Below, one piece after another: positions 3,434-63,925 of a stretch of DNA of 64,000 nucleotides. How positions within the stretch are numbered: position 1 is the first letter of the stretch; each line of letters opens with the position of its first letter. Where the stretch lies: contig JBNZDD010013732.1 of the NCBI GenBank assembly GCA_050575255.1, forward strand, positions 24,426,566-24,490,565, given 5' to 3'. The notes under the pieces were generated by a model. That model searched no databases. It was given only the letters and a program-made list of their open reading frames with translations, and was not told where the DNA came from. The translations under genes and the position numbers were made by a program. This DNA comes from Harriotta raleighana (Eukaryota).

Positions 3434-3524
3434 GTATTTGCTCCCAGAGTAGGCGTTATGTATCTACTAGCAAGTTTGGCGTTTTTGTTTTATTACAGCA
3501 AAGTCCCTGAAAGATACTTTCCTG
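3434..3524 (+). CDS. PAQR3: PAQR3-like (progestin and adipoQ receptor family), penultimate coding exon
   Basis: tag|GTATTT...CCTG|gtaagt, 91 nt, phase 0 to 1. Encodes VFAPRVGVMYLLASLAFLFYYSKVPERYFP, matching the PAQR3 SKVPERYFPG motif. No upstream exons were found in the window. Confidence 0.88.
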
Positions 3525-3893
3525 GTAAGTCGCCACAACCTATCGATACAATCTCTTGAGTAATAAGCATTTGTATATTCAATGCAAATGGCCTTTTTTT
3601 TAGCAAGACAAAACAGGTTTTCAGTGAAGGCTCACATATCGAAATGTAGCTGAAGTCTATTCAAATTGCTTTAAAACAAATTAATGATAGTACTGATGTT
3701 CATGAGAAGTAACCTTCCATTATAACTAGGTGGGCCCTTGTTAACTTTGCTATGGTGCATAATCTCTAATATTACATATTATTGGGTGGAGTGGGTGGGG
3801 TGGGAGAGGAAAGTGCAGGATTGTGTTTAAAACTGAACACATGAAAATGGTCAGTGATCCTGGGCCTCTTTGTAATCAACTCTTGTTTTCCAG

Positions 3894-4033
3894 GTGGATA
3901 CTTGAATTACTTTGGCTGCAGCCACCAGTGGTGGCATTTCCTGGTCGTTTTAATGTTCTATTGGTGGCACCAGACTGCAGTTCATATAATGCATTATAGA
4001 CACGAGCAACCATGCCTAAAAATAACTAAGTAA
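3894..4033 (+). CDS. PAQR3: PAQR3-like, last coding exon
   Basis: cag|GT GGA TAC..., phase-compatible with the previous exon. Encodes GGYLNYFGCSHQWWHFLVVLMFYWWHQTAVHIMHYRHEQPCLKITK*, with the PAQR SHQxWH zinc-ligand motif. Confidence 0.9.
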
Positions 4034-5399
4034 GTAAATTAACATTTTCCAGCATTTCTACAAGGAGGATTGTTTGGCAGTTAAGAATGAGGTGCTGTTA
4101 TTAAAGACAAGGAAGCCAATGTGGTAGAATGATGTGCGGAGAAAGGGGAACAAAATCTCAGTTTAAATAGTAATTCTTCAGTTCAACAACTCTTCTTGTG
4201 AATGTATTGACTGCCTTCTAATTTACCTAAGATTGAATGTGTCTTGATCACGTTACTGCAAATATTGGAAGTTGTACCTTAGTACCGACCAGTACTGTAA
4301 TATCTGCTCAGCTGATGACTCAGACTTACAGTTGCATGAAGAAACCTTCCCAACGAGCCAAATTGTTGGCTGCCTACTTTTCTAACACTTGGACTGTGCC
4401 AGTAACCAATACAGCATCACAAACTTGAGGTGCATTATGTTCAGGCAGCTGCAATAAATGCCTTTTAATAGAGAAGTAAGAGCATGTATTTGTAAATGTC
4501 TCAAATGTATTTATTGAACTGTCTTTCTTCATAAATAATAATTGCCTGCCTTTGTCATAGTTCTAATTTTGTAGAAATGGTTTAATATGTACTGTACCGT
4601 GTGGGCTGTAAATCTAATGACTATAGAACAGTAAAACAGTTCTGCATGCACAGTAAAAAAAATTATTGTAACTGTTTACAAGGCCCAATTAGTATCCTGC
4701 CGACCACCTTTTCTCCCCAACCCTAAGTTGTTGTGTTTTTCCTTCTATAATGTGATGATGGGTTCAATGACCACTAAATGCTTTTGCTTAATTTGTGAAG
4801 TGACCAACAAATTGAATTAGAAAAGTTGCACTAACAGACTTACAACGATCACTTCTGCTGTCCATAGTAGTAACTTGATGCGTTTTCATTTAAAACTTGA
4901 ATGTCTTTGAGATGCAGATTTCAGGGAAGGGAGGGCGTGATTTTTTTCTAAAAATGGGAGAAGTTGATACTAACTGTTGGACATTTATTTTCTCTGATGC
5001 TGTTTGCATAGTCTTTGCAAACATTTGCCTTACCTTGGGCCATTTTACTGATAAGTGTAAGATACGAAAAGCTTTAGGATACTGTATGCAAAACCTTCAA
5101 ATAGTCAGGAGCTTCCAATGTTGTGATTCCATTATTTGCCTGAGTTCCACCTTTATGCAAGGTTCACCACCTTTTGAACATGTGGAAGCAACTGATAAAT
5201 GAGTTTTTAATGGGAGCAGCTGCCATAAAATAGGGATTGGTGGTTATAAACATGTCTAGACAATTTTAAGATGGGCGGGCATTTTATCTTGCATTCACTT
5301 AATGTTGGCAAATGCACCGTGATGAGAGATGGGAAAGGAGAATACATATTGGGGCTAAAGATAGAAACTAAAGATACATAGGGGTGGATTGGAGAGGGA

Positions 5400-5965
5400 G
5401 ATAGTGTTGATTAATCACTGCAACGATCAGAACAGTGTGTGGCAGCAATGAAGACAGCAAACAAGATCTTGAAATACACAGCTGAGGACAAATGAGGTAT
5501 TACTGAACTTGTACATGTAATAGACTGGTCCCAATGGGGAGCACTCTATTATGGGTACTCTATTCCTGTAGGGACATTTTTGCACTTGAAAGGGCAACTA
5601 AAATGGAATTCCGTATTCGAATTATGAGACCGTAACAGAAACTCGGATGTTCACACTGAGGAAGGGACATCTTAAAGTATTCAAAAAGAATCATAATACA
5701 GTATGTTTAGCAGAATCACAAACATCACAACAAGGAGGAATAGAAGCTGGAAGGCGAATAGGCAGTTCCGATTTTATTATTTTACACACCAAGCATGTGG
5801 AATGGACCAGCCAATGAAGCGGATTCTGTTAGCAATTCAAGAGGGGATTGGATAGTTATTTGCAAAGAAAGCAGCTGAGGCGCATGAGATGGTAGTACAG
5901 GATATGTTTAAGATTGAGACCTGCCAGATAGGGCATGGGTGGACTCTTCTGTTCCTGTATGTGTT
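5400..5965 (+). mobile_element. Degraded CR1-type LINE 3' fragment
   Basis: Decayed similarity to the CR1 ORF2 end seen at 26000-26730, ending ...GGTGGACTCTTCTGTTCCTGTATG. Boundaries are approximate. Confidence 0.55.
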
Positions 5966-60971: not shown

Positions 60972-61066
60972 GAACTGATGAAGATGAGATTATCAACCTT
61001 TTGACAAGTCGCAGCAATGCTCAGCGACAGCAAATCGTCAAAGCATTTTCGGAGAATCACGGAAAG
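60972..61066 (+). CDS. Annexin coding exon 3
   Basis: ttcag|GA...AAG|gtaata, 95 nt. Encodes TDEDEIINLLTSRSNAQRQQIVKAFSENHGK. Confidence 0.95.
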
Positions 61067-62955
61067 GTAATAAATACTTTTTAATATTTAATATGCATGT
61101 AGTTACATTGAAACTGAGCACAGAATCACATCATTCAGCCCAGCTAATCCGTTTCAGCGCTTTATCTCCATCTGAGATTCCACACTCCTTAATCCACTCT
61201 TTACACTCCACTTCCATTCCCTTCCATTCCCTTCTCACTTGTGTATGCATCAAGTTTCTTCTTAATTATGTTGATGCTTTCTACCACAACCACAGTTTTC
61301 GGCAGTGCGTTTCGTATTCTCTCCACCATTTGTGTAAAGTTTTTTTTTTCAAAATTTCTGTTTAGATCTGCACTGGCAATCCTAATATATGTGCCCTTGT
61401 TTGGAACTCACTGAGAAGTGGAAATAGCCTATTAATCTTTTGTTAATACAACACATTTGGGGAAAATTTGTTGACATGTTGGGAACAATATCACTGACAG
61501 ATGTATACGGTGAATAGGGGCTCATCCACTGCAGAATGAATATTGTGAGTGTAAATTGCACTGGTCCTCATGTTTGGTCTGTATAGAGCTCTTATTGAAA
61601 GAGGTTCAACCATGTCCCACATCACATTATTCTGCAAGGACCAATGTGGCAAAGATGAATGCAAATTGAAGATCAGAGTGTACGATAAAGCCTGGGGCAA
61701 TGTTTCAGATTTGAATAAATGTAATGACAGACATAGAATAACAGAATCTTACAAAAATCATTGGGTTGTCAATTATCAACTCTGCTAGGGTTTTTTCCAC
61801 ATGAGCTACCTGATGTTCAGAAGTTGAAACCCTCGACTGTGACAAACTGTGACAGATTTGTGTTGCTTTGCTCATTTGACTACCAGAGAAAATGATTGGC
61901 TGTCTAATAAACCAGATATGTCAGTTCCTGGTTTCAAACCTGTGAACAATATCAGTCCAATGGATCTTTCTGATCCTTCAGTCACTCATTTGTGGGACTC
62001 ACATGCCTGAGGTTGTTTATAAATTGGACTGGTTGGGGAGAGATGCTCCCCCTCATGAAGGGCATTACATAAATGCAATTGTTGTTTACTTATGTGCTTT
62101 ACAACTGTGTTTTAAGATTAATTTAAACCACAATTAATTCTTGGTTCTTTCATTTGGGGTGGATATTTAAATGTGGCTGCCATGCATTCTTTGTTTACTC
62201 AGTTCCACATTCGCCTTGACTGCTCACTAAGCAGAAAATGTAAAGCTTCTGAAGCACTGGGTGTGTAAACCGCACACAATACATTTATTTCACTGCAGTT
62301 TGGGAATTAGAAGAGTCTCTTTGTAACTTGATGAAACCCAGTCATTGTACTTTACTGCGAAGGCAGCAGAAAAGAGATTTCAACCCACTCTCATTACCAC
62401 AATCTAATTCCAATCTAATCCACAATCTATTTGTATTCCCCTGTACAAGAGCATCTGAAAGATAGAGTTCTGTGGAATGGCAGCAATCTCTGTGTAGAAG
62501 ATAGCCCATTAAAGATTTAATTTAGATACAGAAATGCTTAAAATGTTAATGCTGCGAAAATTGTAAGGAGAGGTAGCTTTGTTGTAGGGTATTTTATAAG
62601 TTTGTTTTAAGGTCTAAAATGAGATCTGAAAATGGGGAAGGAGAGAGCAAGGCGAAGGGAATGAGGGTGAGAGTTTCATGGCTACCAGTTTTTTTTGATC
62701 AGCACACAATAATAGGGTTGCAGGAGGTCACAGATGGGAGGAGGTGGCCCTGTGAGTAATTTGAATGCAAGGACATTTGATATGATTAATGCGGTTGATG
62801 GGCTGGTGGAGGAGGAATCGTGGGCATATTGTAATAGATGCGGTACAATATTGCATGTTTGCATAAATTACATTTTCTTCCTAATCTTTCCTTTCTTGAA
62901 AATGTCATATTCTGGTTGAGGTTCCACAAAAGTTGGATTCCTCCCATTGCTCGCT

Positions 62956-63447
62956 CAACAACAACAACAACAAAATTACATTTGTATAGTGCCTTTCACG
63001 TCAGGAGGACATCCCAAGGTGCTGAACAGTTACTGCTTCAGACCCGAGCTGAGGACAGGGGAGGGGGGGGAAGGAGTTGCCGATGGGTCCATCAAAAAGT
63101 ATAGTCTAGAGGTTGAGTCTTGAAGGAGGCCAGGGAGGGGGCGAGGCGGAGGGATTTCAGGATGGAGTTCCAGAGATTGAGGGCAGAGTGTCTGAAGGCT
63201 CACCTGCCAATGGTTGGGCGGGTGGGTCGGAGGACGTGTCGCAGACCAGAGTCTGCTGCATAGAGGGGGTGGGCAGGTTGGTAAGGAGATAGGAGATCAT
63301 GGATGTAGGGTGGGGCAAGGTTGTGGAGGGCTTTAAATATAAGGGCCAGGATCTTGAATTGGATCCTCTGGATGATGGGGAGCCAATGGAGTCAGGCAAG
63401 GATGGGGGAGATGGGGTCATGGAGTTTGGAACAGTAGAGGACACAGC
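62956..63447 (-). mobile_element. L2-type LINE 3' fragment
   Basis: Close relative of 34276-34790, with a (CAA)n AAATTACATTTGTATAGTGCCTTTCACG tail on +. Confidence 0.85.
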
Positions 63448-63811
63448 CTTTCATATTCGTGAACTTGTCTGGCATTGAGCTTGAGATGTTCTTAACTGAT
63501 AGTCACCACATACACCCTCCAGGAGCTCTCGCACATCTTAGCTAAATCAGTAGGGACCAGAGACTAAACCTGGGAATTTTTGATCTGTATGCTTCCAATG
63601 CTGCATTATACAATGCACTCACCCCAGAGATATCAATAAAGTCCATTTTTGGAAAAAAAAATGCCTTGTCAGAAGGAGCCTGAAAAAAGAACTCTGAGCA
63701 TTTTTGTATTAATACTTTCACATTATTGGCTTCAATGCACATCTTACAGTGGATAAGAGACTTCAAACACAAACCTACCGTGCTGAATAACCTATCACTG
63801 AAAACCCACAG

Positions 63812-63925
63812 GATCTGATTGATGAATTGAAAACGGAGCTTGGAGGACATCTCGAAATGGTTATTGAGGGCCTCATCTTGACCCCTGCAGCATATGATGC
63901 AAAGGAACTGAAGAACTCCATGGAT
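63812..63925 (+). CDS. Annexin coding exon 4 (gene continues beyond the window)
   Basis: cacag|GAT...GAT|gtaaat, 114 nt. Encodes [38 protein letters not shown]. Confidence 0.93.

What the first reader, a model, noticed from the sequence alone, without database searches (positions are those of the whole stretch)
3434..63925. PAQR3-like, AAK1-type kinase and annexin in one block: a gene order split across two human paralogous regions, possibly retained ohnologs
Seen: a PAQR3-like gene (+) is tail-to-tail with an AAK1-type kinase (-), which is head-to-head with an annexin (+). Established: in human, PAQR3 is tail-to-tail with BMP2K (near ANXA3, 4q21), whereas AAK1 is divergent from ANXA4 (2p13) and is followed by NFU1/GFPT1, not a PAQR. 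The kinase here has AAK1-type termini (MKKFFDTRRE, LLMDQLIDL), and the PAQR peptide differs from human PAQR3 (GGYLNYFGCSHQWWH versus GQLNYLGSSHQIWH). Inference: this is the ancestral annexin-NAK-PAQR3 block retained after vertebrate genome duplication. It would carry a second PAQR3 ohnolog lost in mammals, and possibly a third NAK ohnolog.
Basis: partly seen in the sequence, partly recalled or inferred. Interest (0 to 1): 0.7.

Follow-up and report, generated by a model that had tools for sequence, protein, structure and literature searches.

The report
Third AAK1/BMP2K kinase kept in sharks
This stretch of a chimaera-like fish genome holds an intact third kinase of the AAK1/BMP2K endocytosis family beside a second PAQR3 gene, and both are likely leftovers of the early vertebrate genome doublings that sharks and rays kept and humans likely lost.

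Summary
The genome has three AAK1/BMP2K-type kinase loci and two PAQR3 loci. A separate contig carries PAQR3-BMP2K-annexin-FRAS1-like, another carries ANTXR-GFPT-NFU1-AAK1. The window kinase is intact (718 or 1051 aa by alternative last exons) and forms its own clade with 15 shark, ray and chimaera 'AAK1-like' proteins (100/100), apart from AAK1 and BMP2K. The window PAQR3 groups with a lungfish protein (100/100), so that duplication predates the shark/bony-fish split. Flanking genes place the block on the human 10q11-like paralogous region (GDF10/GDF2/RBP3/ZNF488/ANTXR-like), where it also carries a third GFPT, a second NFU1 and two tandem annexins. Unsettled: the branching order of the three kinases, which annexin subfamily the window gene is, expression, and whether some bony fishes keep the kinase. 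The short isoform ends LIDLS, not LIDL. The genes exist in RefSeq as '-like' models; my paper searches found no description of them as separate ohnologs. Retained ohnologs in cartilaginous fishes are a known kind of finding.

The parts
3434..3524 (+). PAQR3-like (second PAQR3) coding exon 5 of 6
   Evidence: AG/GT bounded, 91 nt as in the other PAQR3 locus
3894..4033 (+). PAQR3-like last coding exon with HxxWH motif and stop
8702..9684 (-). Kinase long-isoform terminal exon (acidic tail with DLF/DPF/NPF/APF-type short motifs)
   Evidence: 73% identical to the C. milii AAK1-like tail; no Pfam hit
15189..15277 (-). Kinase short-isoform terminal exon ending LIDLS-stop
15892..15996 (-). Kinase long-isoform penultimate exon
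17775..22816 (-). Kinase exons 11-15: Q-rich region, [15 protein letters not shown] exon, WNPF exon
27255..41756 (-). Kinase exons 2-10: catalytic domain (K74, E90, HRD 174-176, DFG 194-196, E216) and following conserved segment
   Evidence: exon lengths of exons 2-9 equal those of the AAK1 locus
49094..49256 (-). Kinase first coding exon (MKKFF start)
48250..49750 (.). CpG-island-like stretch at the kinase 5' end, facing the annexin
   Evidence: GC up to 0.65, CpG observed/expected up to 0.92 in 500-base windows
59596..63925 (+). Three exons of a four-repeat annexin that ends with its own stop about 15.7 kb right of the window

Best explanation
The window holds an intact third AAK1/BMP2K-type kinase gene and a second PAQR3 gene, likely copies made by the early vertebrate whole-genome duplications and kept on the region paralogous to human 10q11 in cartilaginous fishes. 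Shown: three kinase loci, two PAQR3 loci, three GFPT loci and two vertebrate-type NFU1 loci in this genome; separate, fully supported clades; a lungfish member of the second PAQR3 clade; parallel gene order at three loci. Inferred: the ancestral block was BMP/GDF - ANTXR - GFPT - NFU1 - PAQR3 - NAK kinase - annexin; the 4q21-like copy kept PAQR3, BMP2K and an annexin, the 2p13-like copy kept GFPT1, NFU1 and AAK1, and the window's copy kept all of them. Predicted function: a constitutively active NAK kinase acting in clathrin/AP2 endocytosis (catalytic residues and the R175-E216 pair are kept), with a short isoform that in relatives ends in the AAK1-type LIDL PDZ ligand; and a seven-pass PAQR membrane protein with intact H3-S-D metal site, likely Golgi-based like PAQR3.
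For: Own-genome searches: kinase exon 3 matches of 4 candidates, PAQR3 exon 2 of 8, GFPT exon 3 of 3, NifU 3 of 5 of which one is only 43% identical and on an 8.9-kb contig. Kinase tree of 52 rows: window + 15 chondrichthyan rows 100/100; own C13375 gene in the AAK1 clade with stingray, coelacanth, birds, dog and teleosts 100/98; own C13659 gene in the BMP2K clade 99/98. AU rejects window clade + own BMP2K (p 0.0003) and only just rejects window clade + shark AAK1 (p 0.047). PAQR tree of 21 rows: window + 6 chondrichthyans + lungfish 100/100; an all-chondrichthyan clade without the lungfish is rejected, p 1.5e-6. Neighbours: TGF-beta genes, RBP3-like, ZNF488-like, ANTXR-like left; ADAMTS PLAC exon and another TGF-beta gene right, matching the human 10q11.22 gene list in PMC8624726 (passage). 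The three GFPTs are 77-81% identical over 450 positions. Consecutive RefSeq numbers or equal contig lengths for kinase and PAQR3-like in nine other species.
Against: The branching order of the three kinases is open: 674, 195 and 125 of 1000 bootstrap trees for the three resolutions, and window + BMP2K + cyclostomes is not rejected (p 0.37). No bony-vertebrate member of the third kinase clade was found, so for the kinase alone the age rests on tree shape, a marginal AU value and synteny. In the PAQR tree the second clade sits on a long stem next to the genome's own PAQR3 (88/87, unstarred), not outside all PAQR3. The AU groups were run after the trees were seen. The annexin tree is unresolved (1 of 10 inner branches starred). 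Names of flanking genes rest on Pfam families and recalled likeness, not on trees. The short isoform ends LIDLS here, which would spoil a C-terminal PDZ ligand.
Confidence: 0.88

Rival explanations
1. A segmental duplication of the AAK1 region (ANTXR-GFPT-NFU1-AAK1) within cartilaginous fishes, inserted beside RBP3, followed by fast divergence.
For: Gene order and exon sizes match the AAK1 locus closely; only AAK1 and the window kinase have the LIDL exon; no bony-vertebrate member of the clade found; AU rejection is marginal, p 0.047.
Against: The AAK1 locus has no PAQR3 match; the neighbouring PAQR3-like gene has a lungfish ortholog; GFPT copies are about equidistant; shark AAK1 groups with bony AAK1 at 100/98.
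Confidence: 0.07
2. A pre-gnathostome small-scale (non-genome-wide) block duplication, old enough to be shared with lungfish but not part of the two genome doublings.
For: Trees alone cannot tell block from genome duplication; kinase branching order is open.
Against: The three loci lie among TGF-beta, ANTXR, PITX, ADAMTS and annexin paralogs of the 4/5/8-2/10 paralogon that PMC2453138 ascribes to two tetraploidisations (abstract and passages).
Confidence: 0.04
3. The kinase is simply this species' BMP2K or AAK1 and the order is a rearrangement or misassembly.
For: RefSeq names the C. milii PAQR ortholog plain 'member 3' and some kinase isoforms 'BMP-2-inducible protein kinase-like'.
Against: Separate BMP2K and AAK1 loci exist; the junction has no gap; the pairing recurs in other species.
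Confidence: 0.01

Closest known systems
AAK1 (NAK family; human 2p13, PDB 4WSQ/5TE0)
   Same: N-terminal MKKFF.., exon 3 of 109 nt, [15 protein letters not shown] exon, LIDL-type last exon, alternative long acidic tail, neighbours NFU1 and GFPT; best PDB match of the C. milii ortholog.
   Different: Separate clade with 10 positions where it differs from both AAK1 and BMP2K consensus; about 75-81% identical over the kinase region; a true AAK1 exists elsewhere in the genome; PAQR3 copy sits between it and NFU1; short form ends LIDLS here.
BMP2K/BIKE (human 4q21)
   Same: Tail-to-tail with a PAQR3 gene; same exon phases.
   Different: Different clade (AU p 0.0003 against own BMP2K); tail does not hit Pfam BMP2K_C, while the genome's BMP2K tail does at 3.6e-110; annexin is head-to-head rather than head-to-tail.
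PAQR3/RKTG
   Same: Six coding exons of matching size, HlyIII/PAQR domain, H3-S-D residues.
   Different: 65% identical to the genome's own PAQR3, but 95.5-99.7% to six chondrichthyan orthologs and 85% to lungfish; one-residue insertion before the last helix; teleost paqr3a and paqr3b do not belong to it.
Hsa 4/5/8-2/10 paralogon (PMC2453138)
   Same: Same set of paralogous regions, with annexin and ADAMTS families (passages).
   Different: That paper does not mention AAK1 (0 occurrences); the extra kinase, PAQR3, GFPT and NFU1 copies are absent from the human 10q11.22 list in PMC8624726.
Annexins A3/A4/A5/A8
   Same: Four-repeat core, standard exon layout.
   Different: At most 51% identical to any other annexin of this genome; not the eight-repeat ANXA6 (on C13695), nor the C13659 or C13254 annexins; subfamily unresolved.

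Membership tests
NAK kinase family (AAK1/BMP2K branch) | N-terminal kinase domain with intact catalytic Lys, alphaC Glu, HRD and DFG | tested here: met
   K74, E90, HRD 174-176, DFG 194-196
NAK kinase family (AAK1/BMP2K branch) | Activation-segment C-terminal helix with the R175-E216 pair described in PMC4780864 | tested here: met
   Sequence only: R175 and E216 at the same numbers, no gap against human AAK1 in that segment for the C. milii ortholog; no structure was predicted
NAK kinase family (AAK1/BMP2K branch) | Phosphorylates AP2 mu2 T156 / [LI]xxQxTG motif | not testable with these tools
   Needs an assay; motif from PMC13346677
AAK1 orthologs | Groups with tetrapod AAK1 in a tree | tested here: not met
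   Outside the 100/98 AAK1 clade; AU p 0.047 against grouping with shark AAK1
AAK1 orthologs | C-terminal LIDL PDZ-binding motif | tested here: inconclusive
   LIDL followed by Ser in this genome; 18 of 19 hand-picked relative isoforms end LIDL, one LIDI
BMP2K orthologs | Groups with BMP2K; BMP2K_C tail domain | tested here: not met
PAQR/CREST family | HlyIII/PAQR domain with three His, one Ser, one Asp (PMC13562381) | tested here: met
   ExxNxxSH 69, SxxxH 122, D144, HxxWH 276 in the gene model; Pfam PF03006 on the Pristis ortholog
PAQR3 orthologs | One-to-one ortholog of bony-vertebrate PAQR3 | tested here: not met
   The C13659 gene is 79-80% identical to turkey and paddlefish PAQR3, the window gene 64-66%
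2R ohnologs | Duplication older than the shark/bony-fish split | tested here: met
   Met for PAQR3-like through the lungfish member; for the kinase supported by tree shape only
2R ohnologs | Copies lie in paralogous blocks with several other duplicated families | tested here: met
   TGF-beta, ANTXR, GFPT, NFU1, annexin, PITX matches at the three loci
2R ohnologs | Duplication younger than the invertebrate-vertebrate split, with the expected paired topology | tested here: inconclusive
   All three clades join within vertebrates at 100/99, but their order is open
ANXA6 | Eight repeats in one reading frame | tested here: not met
   The window annexin has four repeats and its own stop; an eight-repeat gene is on C13695
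ANXA8 or ANXA4 ortholog | Groups with the named subfamily | tested here: inconclusive
   Own-genome tree unresolved; single-exon PDB scores disagree between exons

The most novel reading that the evidence does not exclude
Cartilaginous fishes keep a whole five-gene ohnolog cassette - a third GFPT, a second NFU1, a second PAQR3, a third AAK1/BMP2K kinase and an extra, unnamed annexin - that was deleted between ANTXRL and ANXA8 on the way to humans; its PAQR3 copy changed sharply once, then froze (95-99.7% identical across sharks, rays and chimaeras, 85% in lungfish), marking a distinct, undescribed PAQR function, and the LIDL adhesion-targeting motif credited to AAK1 is older than AAK1 itself.
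Probability: 0.55. Interest if true: 0.6.

Novelty: new member of a known kind. Interest (0 to 1): 0.45.

Why it matters
Vertebrates are described as having two close NAK kinases, AAK1 and BMP2K (PMC4780864, passages). A third lineage gives an outgroup for how their jobs were split: it shares AAK1's LIDL exon but BMP2K's gene neighbour, so the motif that PMC13346677 calls AAK1-specific likely arose before these two genes separated. The block also reconstructs the ancestral order behind human 2p13, 4q21 and 10q11, and flags orthology errors in databases (the C. milii copy is named plain PAQR3). The very slow second PAQR3 is a testable candidate for a separate function. It does not reveal a new mechanism; retained ohnologs in sharks are an expected class.

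Tried and rejected
ANXA6 reading: nine annexin-repeat matches in a row first suggested one eight-repeat gene on a 5q-like region; rejected because they are two genes, the first with its own stop, and an eight-repeat gene lies on C13695. Third NFU1 on C11158: 43% identical, on an 8.9-kb contig, treated as a likely contaminant and dropped from the count. A 1334-codon 'ORF' left of the window is an N gap. Fourth copy near the C13559 GFPT: no kinase, PAQR3, ANTXR or NFU1 match in 140 kb. Teleost paqr3b as ortholog of the window PAQR: not supported. Bony-vertebrate third kinase: none among the 120 listed of 4700 hits nor among 150 cluster representatives scored, where apart from a marginal hagfish row only a bamboo-shark and an unnamed fragment scored best against it; this is weak, since bird AAK1 rows fill the list and 50% clusters can hide it. 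Annexin naming by PDB exon searches was inconclusive. Sequencing runs: no RNA holder listed, so expression was not examined. Earlier findings: nothing shown. Atlas look-up added only the PAQR family. Paper searches: searches returned 0 papers; some searches listed papers, none by title or abstract on a third AAK1/BMP2K gene or second PAQR3 in cartilaginous fish. The library lacks most subscription papers, and supplementary ortholog tables of shark genome papers other than PMC3964593 (no occurrences) were not seen and may list these genes.
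Full report
Observation. The quoted peptides are in the window. Spliced models built from the window give a kinase of 15 shared exons from 49256 down to 17775, then either a short last exon (15277-15189; 718 aa) or two further exons (15996-15892, 9684-8702; 1051 aa). All introns are GT-AG and neither frame has an internal stop. 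The two forms are 91.5% and 85.5% identical to RefSeq Callorhinchus milii 'AAK1-like' isoforms, and the gene is sister to that protein in the tree, so the genome is chimaera-like. The PAQR gene has six exons, the last two in the window. The annexin has three exons in the window and ends with its own stop about 15.7 kb further right; a second four-repeat annexin follows. One correction: the short kinase form ends LIDLS, not LIDL.

Copy numbers in the genome. A kinase exon matches three places, 3 of 4 candidates: the window, C13659 and C13375. The last PAQR exon matches two, 2 of 8 candidates: the window and C13659. On C13659 the order is PAQR3 (+), kinase (-), annexin (-), FRAS1-like exon, with a BMP3-like gene far to the left; its kinase tail hits Pfam BMP2K_C. 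This is the human 4q21 arrangement as recalled. On C13375 the order is BMP10-like, ANTXR, GFPT, NFU1, kinase ending LIDL, PITX-like, the recalled 2p13 arrangement; no annexin match was found on that 322-kb contig, and an ANXA4-like gene lies on another short contig. So BMP2K and AAK1 are both accounted for elsewhere.

The window's neighbourhood. 200 kb on each side were read. Left to right: two TGF-beta genes (GDF10-like, GDF2-like), RBP3-like, ZNF488-like, ANTXR-like, GFPT-like, NFU1-like, PAQR3-like, the kinase, two annexins, an ADAMTS PLAC exon, and near the contig end a further TGF-beta gene. The gene names rest on Pfam families and recalled likeness, not trees. A passage of PMC8624726 lists human 10q11.22 as ...ANTXRL, ASAH2B, AGAP9, ANXA8, ZNF488, RBP3, GDF2, GDF10..., with no GFPT, NFU1, PAQR or NAK gene. 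PMC2453138 (abstract and passages) ascribes the chromosome 4/5/8-2/10 set to two early tetraploidisations and does not mention AAK1. The GFPT-like gene is one of three in the genome, 81%, 81% and 77% identical pairwise over 450 positions; the NFU1-like gene is one of two vertebrate-type copies.

Kinase phylogeny. A search with the C. milii protein listed 120 of 4700 hits; 17 of the 120 are chondrichthyan 'AAK1-like' proteins at 82-100%, followed by bony-vertebrate AAK1 at 79-82%. The tree used 52 rows: three own models, 14 of those 17 (a second Mobula, an isoform and a chimeric whale-shark model left out), one skate row, a few of the near-identical bird rows, and cluster representatives named. 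It gives three clades: window + 15 chondrichthyans 100/100; AAK1 with the C13375 gene, a stingray, coelacanth, tetrapods and teleosts 100/98; BMP2K with the C13659 gene 99/98. Holding the window clade with the own BMP2K is rejected (p 0.0003); holding it with shark AAK1 is barely rejected (p 0.047). These tests were run after the tree was seen. The order among the three clades is open: 674, 195 and 125 of 1000 bootstrap trees. No bony-vertebrate row fell in the third clade, but the searches cannot exclude one.

PAQR phylogeny. The window protein is 95.5-99.7% identical to six chondrichthyan proteins, 85% to a lungfish 'PAQR3-like', and 65% to the genome's other PAQR3, which is itself 79-80% identical to turkey and paddlefish PAQR3. 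In a careful tree of 21 rows (fragments dropped) these eight form a 100/100 clade on a long stem; forcing all chondrichthyan rows together without the lungfish is rejected at p 1.5e-6. This is the strongest dating evidence: the duplication is older than the split of cartilaginous and bony fishes. Against a tidy picture, the clade attaches next to the own PAQR3 at 88/87, unstarred. Teleost paqr3a and paqr3b are not members.

Conservation of the order. Kinase and PAQR3-like proteins have consecutive RefSeq numbers in C. milii, Amblyraja and Chiloscyllium plagiosum, and equal contig lengths in Pristis, Scyliorhinus, Stegostoma, Heptranchias, Mobula and Hemitrygon. A chimeric whale-shark model joins kinase, NFU1-like and RBP3-like pieces that match this region. 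This is indirect, as no DNA of those species was seen, but it argues against misassembly.

How it likely works. Shown: catalytic K74, E90, HRD, DFG and the R175/E216 pair that PMC4780864 (passages) links to the fixed active state. Inferred: a constitutively active kinase for AP2 mu2-type sites in clathrin-mediated endocytosis, with a long tail bearing DPF/DLF/NPF-type motifs (roles recalled). PMC13346677 (abstract and passages) describes the LIDL end as AAK1-specific, absent from BMP2K and binding PDLIM5; 18 of 19 hand-picked isoforms of the third kinase end LIDL, so the motif likely predates the split of these two genes, while this species' extra Ser would weaken it. The PAQR keeps the H3-S-D residues described in PMC13562381 (passages); Golgi location and signalling role are inferred from PAQR3 only. 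Expression was not examined.

What stays open. The window annexin is at most 51% identical to any other annexin here and the 13-row tree resolves 1 of 10 branches; whether it or its neighbour is ANXA8 is unknown. Loss in bony vertebrates is shown only for the human gene list and otherwise rests on negative searches.

Novelty. The proteins are in RefSeq as automatic '-like' models. Ten paper searches showed no paper describing them as separate ohnologs; PMC8455134 (passages) has no AAK1, PAQR or annexin occurrence, nor has the supplement of PMC3964593; PMC11872487 mentions Paqr3 only at the Fgf5 locus. Verdict: real, new members of a known kind; interest 0.45.

Noticed in passing
G000:C13732:24345000-24375400 (L078-L081), left of the window: A third GFPT gene, about equally distant from the other two; it has N for Y in the LEYRGYDSAG motif and C for Y in HNGIITNY.
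   Followed up: partly
G000:C13732:24382300-24389800 (L082-L083): A second NFU1 gene, 50-90% identical by exon to the one beside AAK1.
   Followed up: partly
G000:C13732:24519100-24528200 (L049-L050): A second four-repeat annexin in tandem, 59% identical to the ANXA4-like gene on C13254; subfamily unresolved.
   Followed up: partly
L039:7417-8094 (-), G000:C13375: A PITX-type homeobox exon 12 kb upstream of AAK1; the genome has four PITX-like loci, one more than the three recalled for human. A paper search for a named extra Pitx gave no listed hit.
   Followed up: partly
L105 (G000:C11158): An 8.9-kb contig with a NifU-domain frame only 43% identical to NFU1, likely a contaminant.
   Followed up: no
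G000:C13653:4274620-4274739 and C13639:3774443-3774562: The same ANXA1-like last exons at the ends of two contigs, probably an assembly overlap.
   Followed up: no
P0040 (whale shark RefSeq model): A chimeric annotation that mixes the third kinase with NFU1-like and RBP3-like pieces.
   Followed up: partly
P0366 (C. milii XP_042192636): Named plain PAQR3 although it belongs to the second clade.
   Followed up: yes
window 25860-26435 and 35608-36689: Broken LINE-type reverse-transcriptase fragments in kinase introns (family recalled).
   Followed up: no
L018 near G000:C13659:966051-966297: The BMP2K first-exon stretch appears twice within about 160 bases, probably a local assembly duplication.
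   Followed up: no
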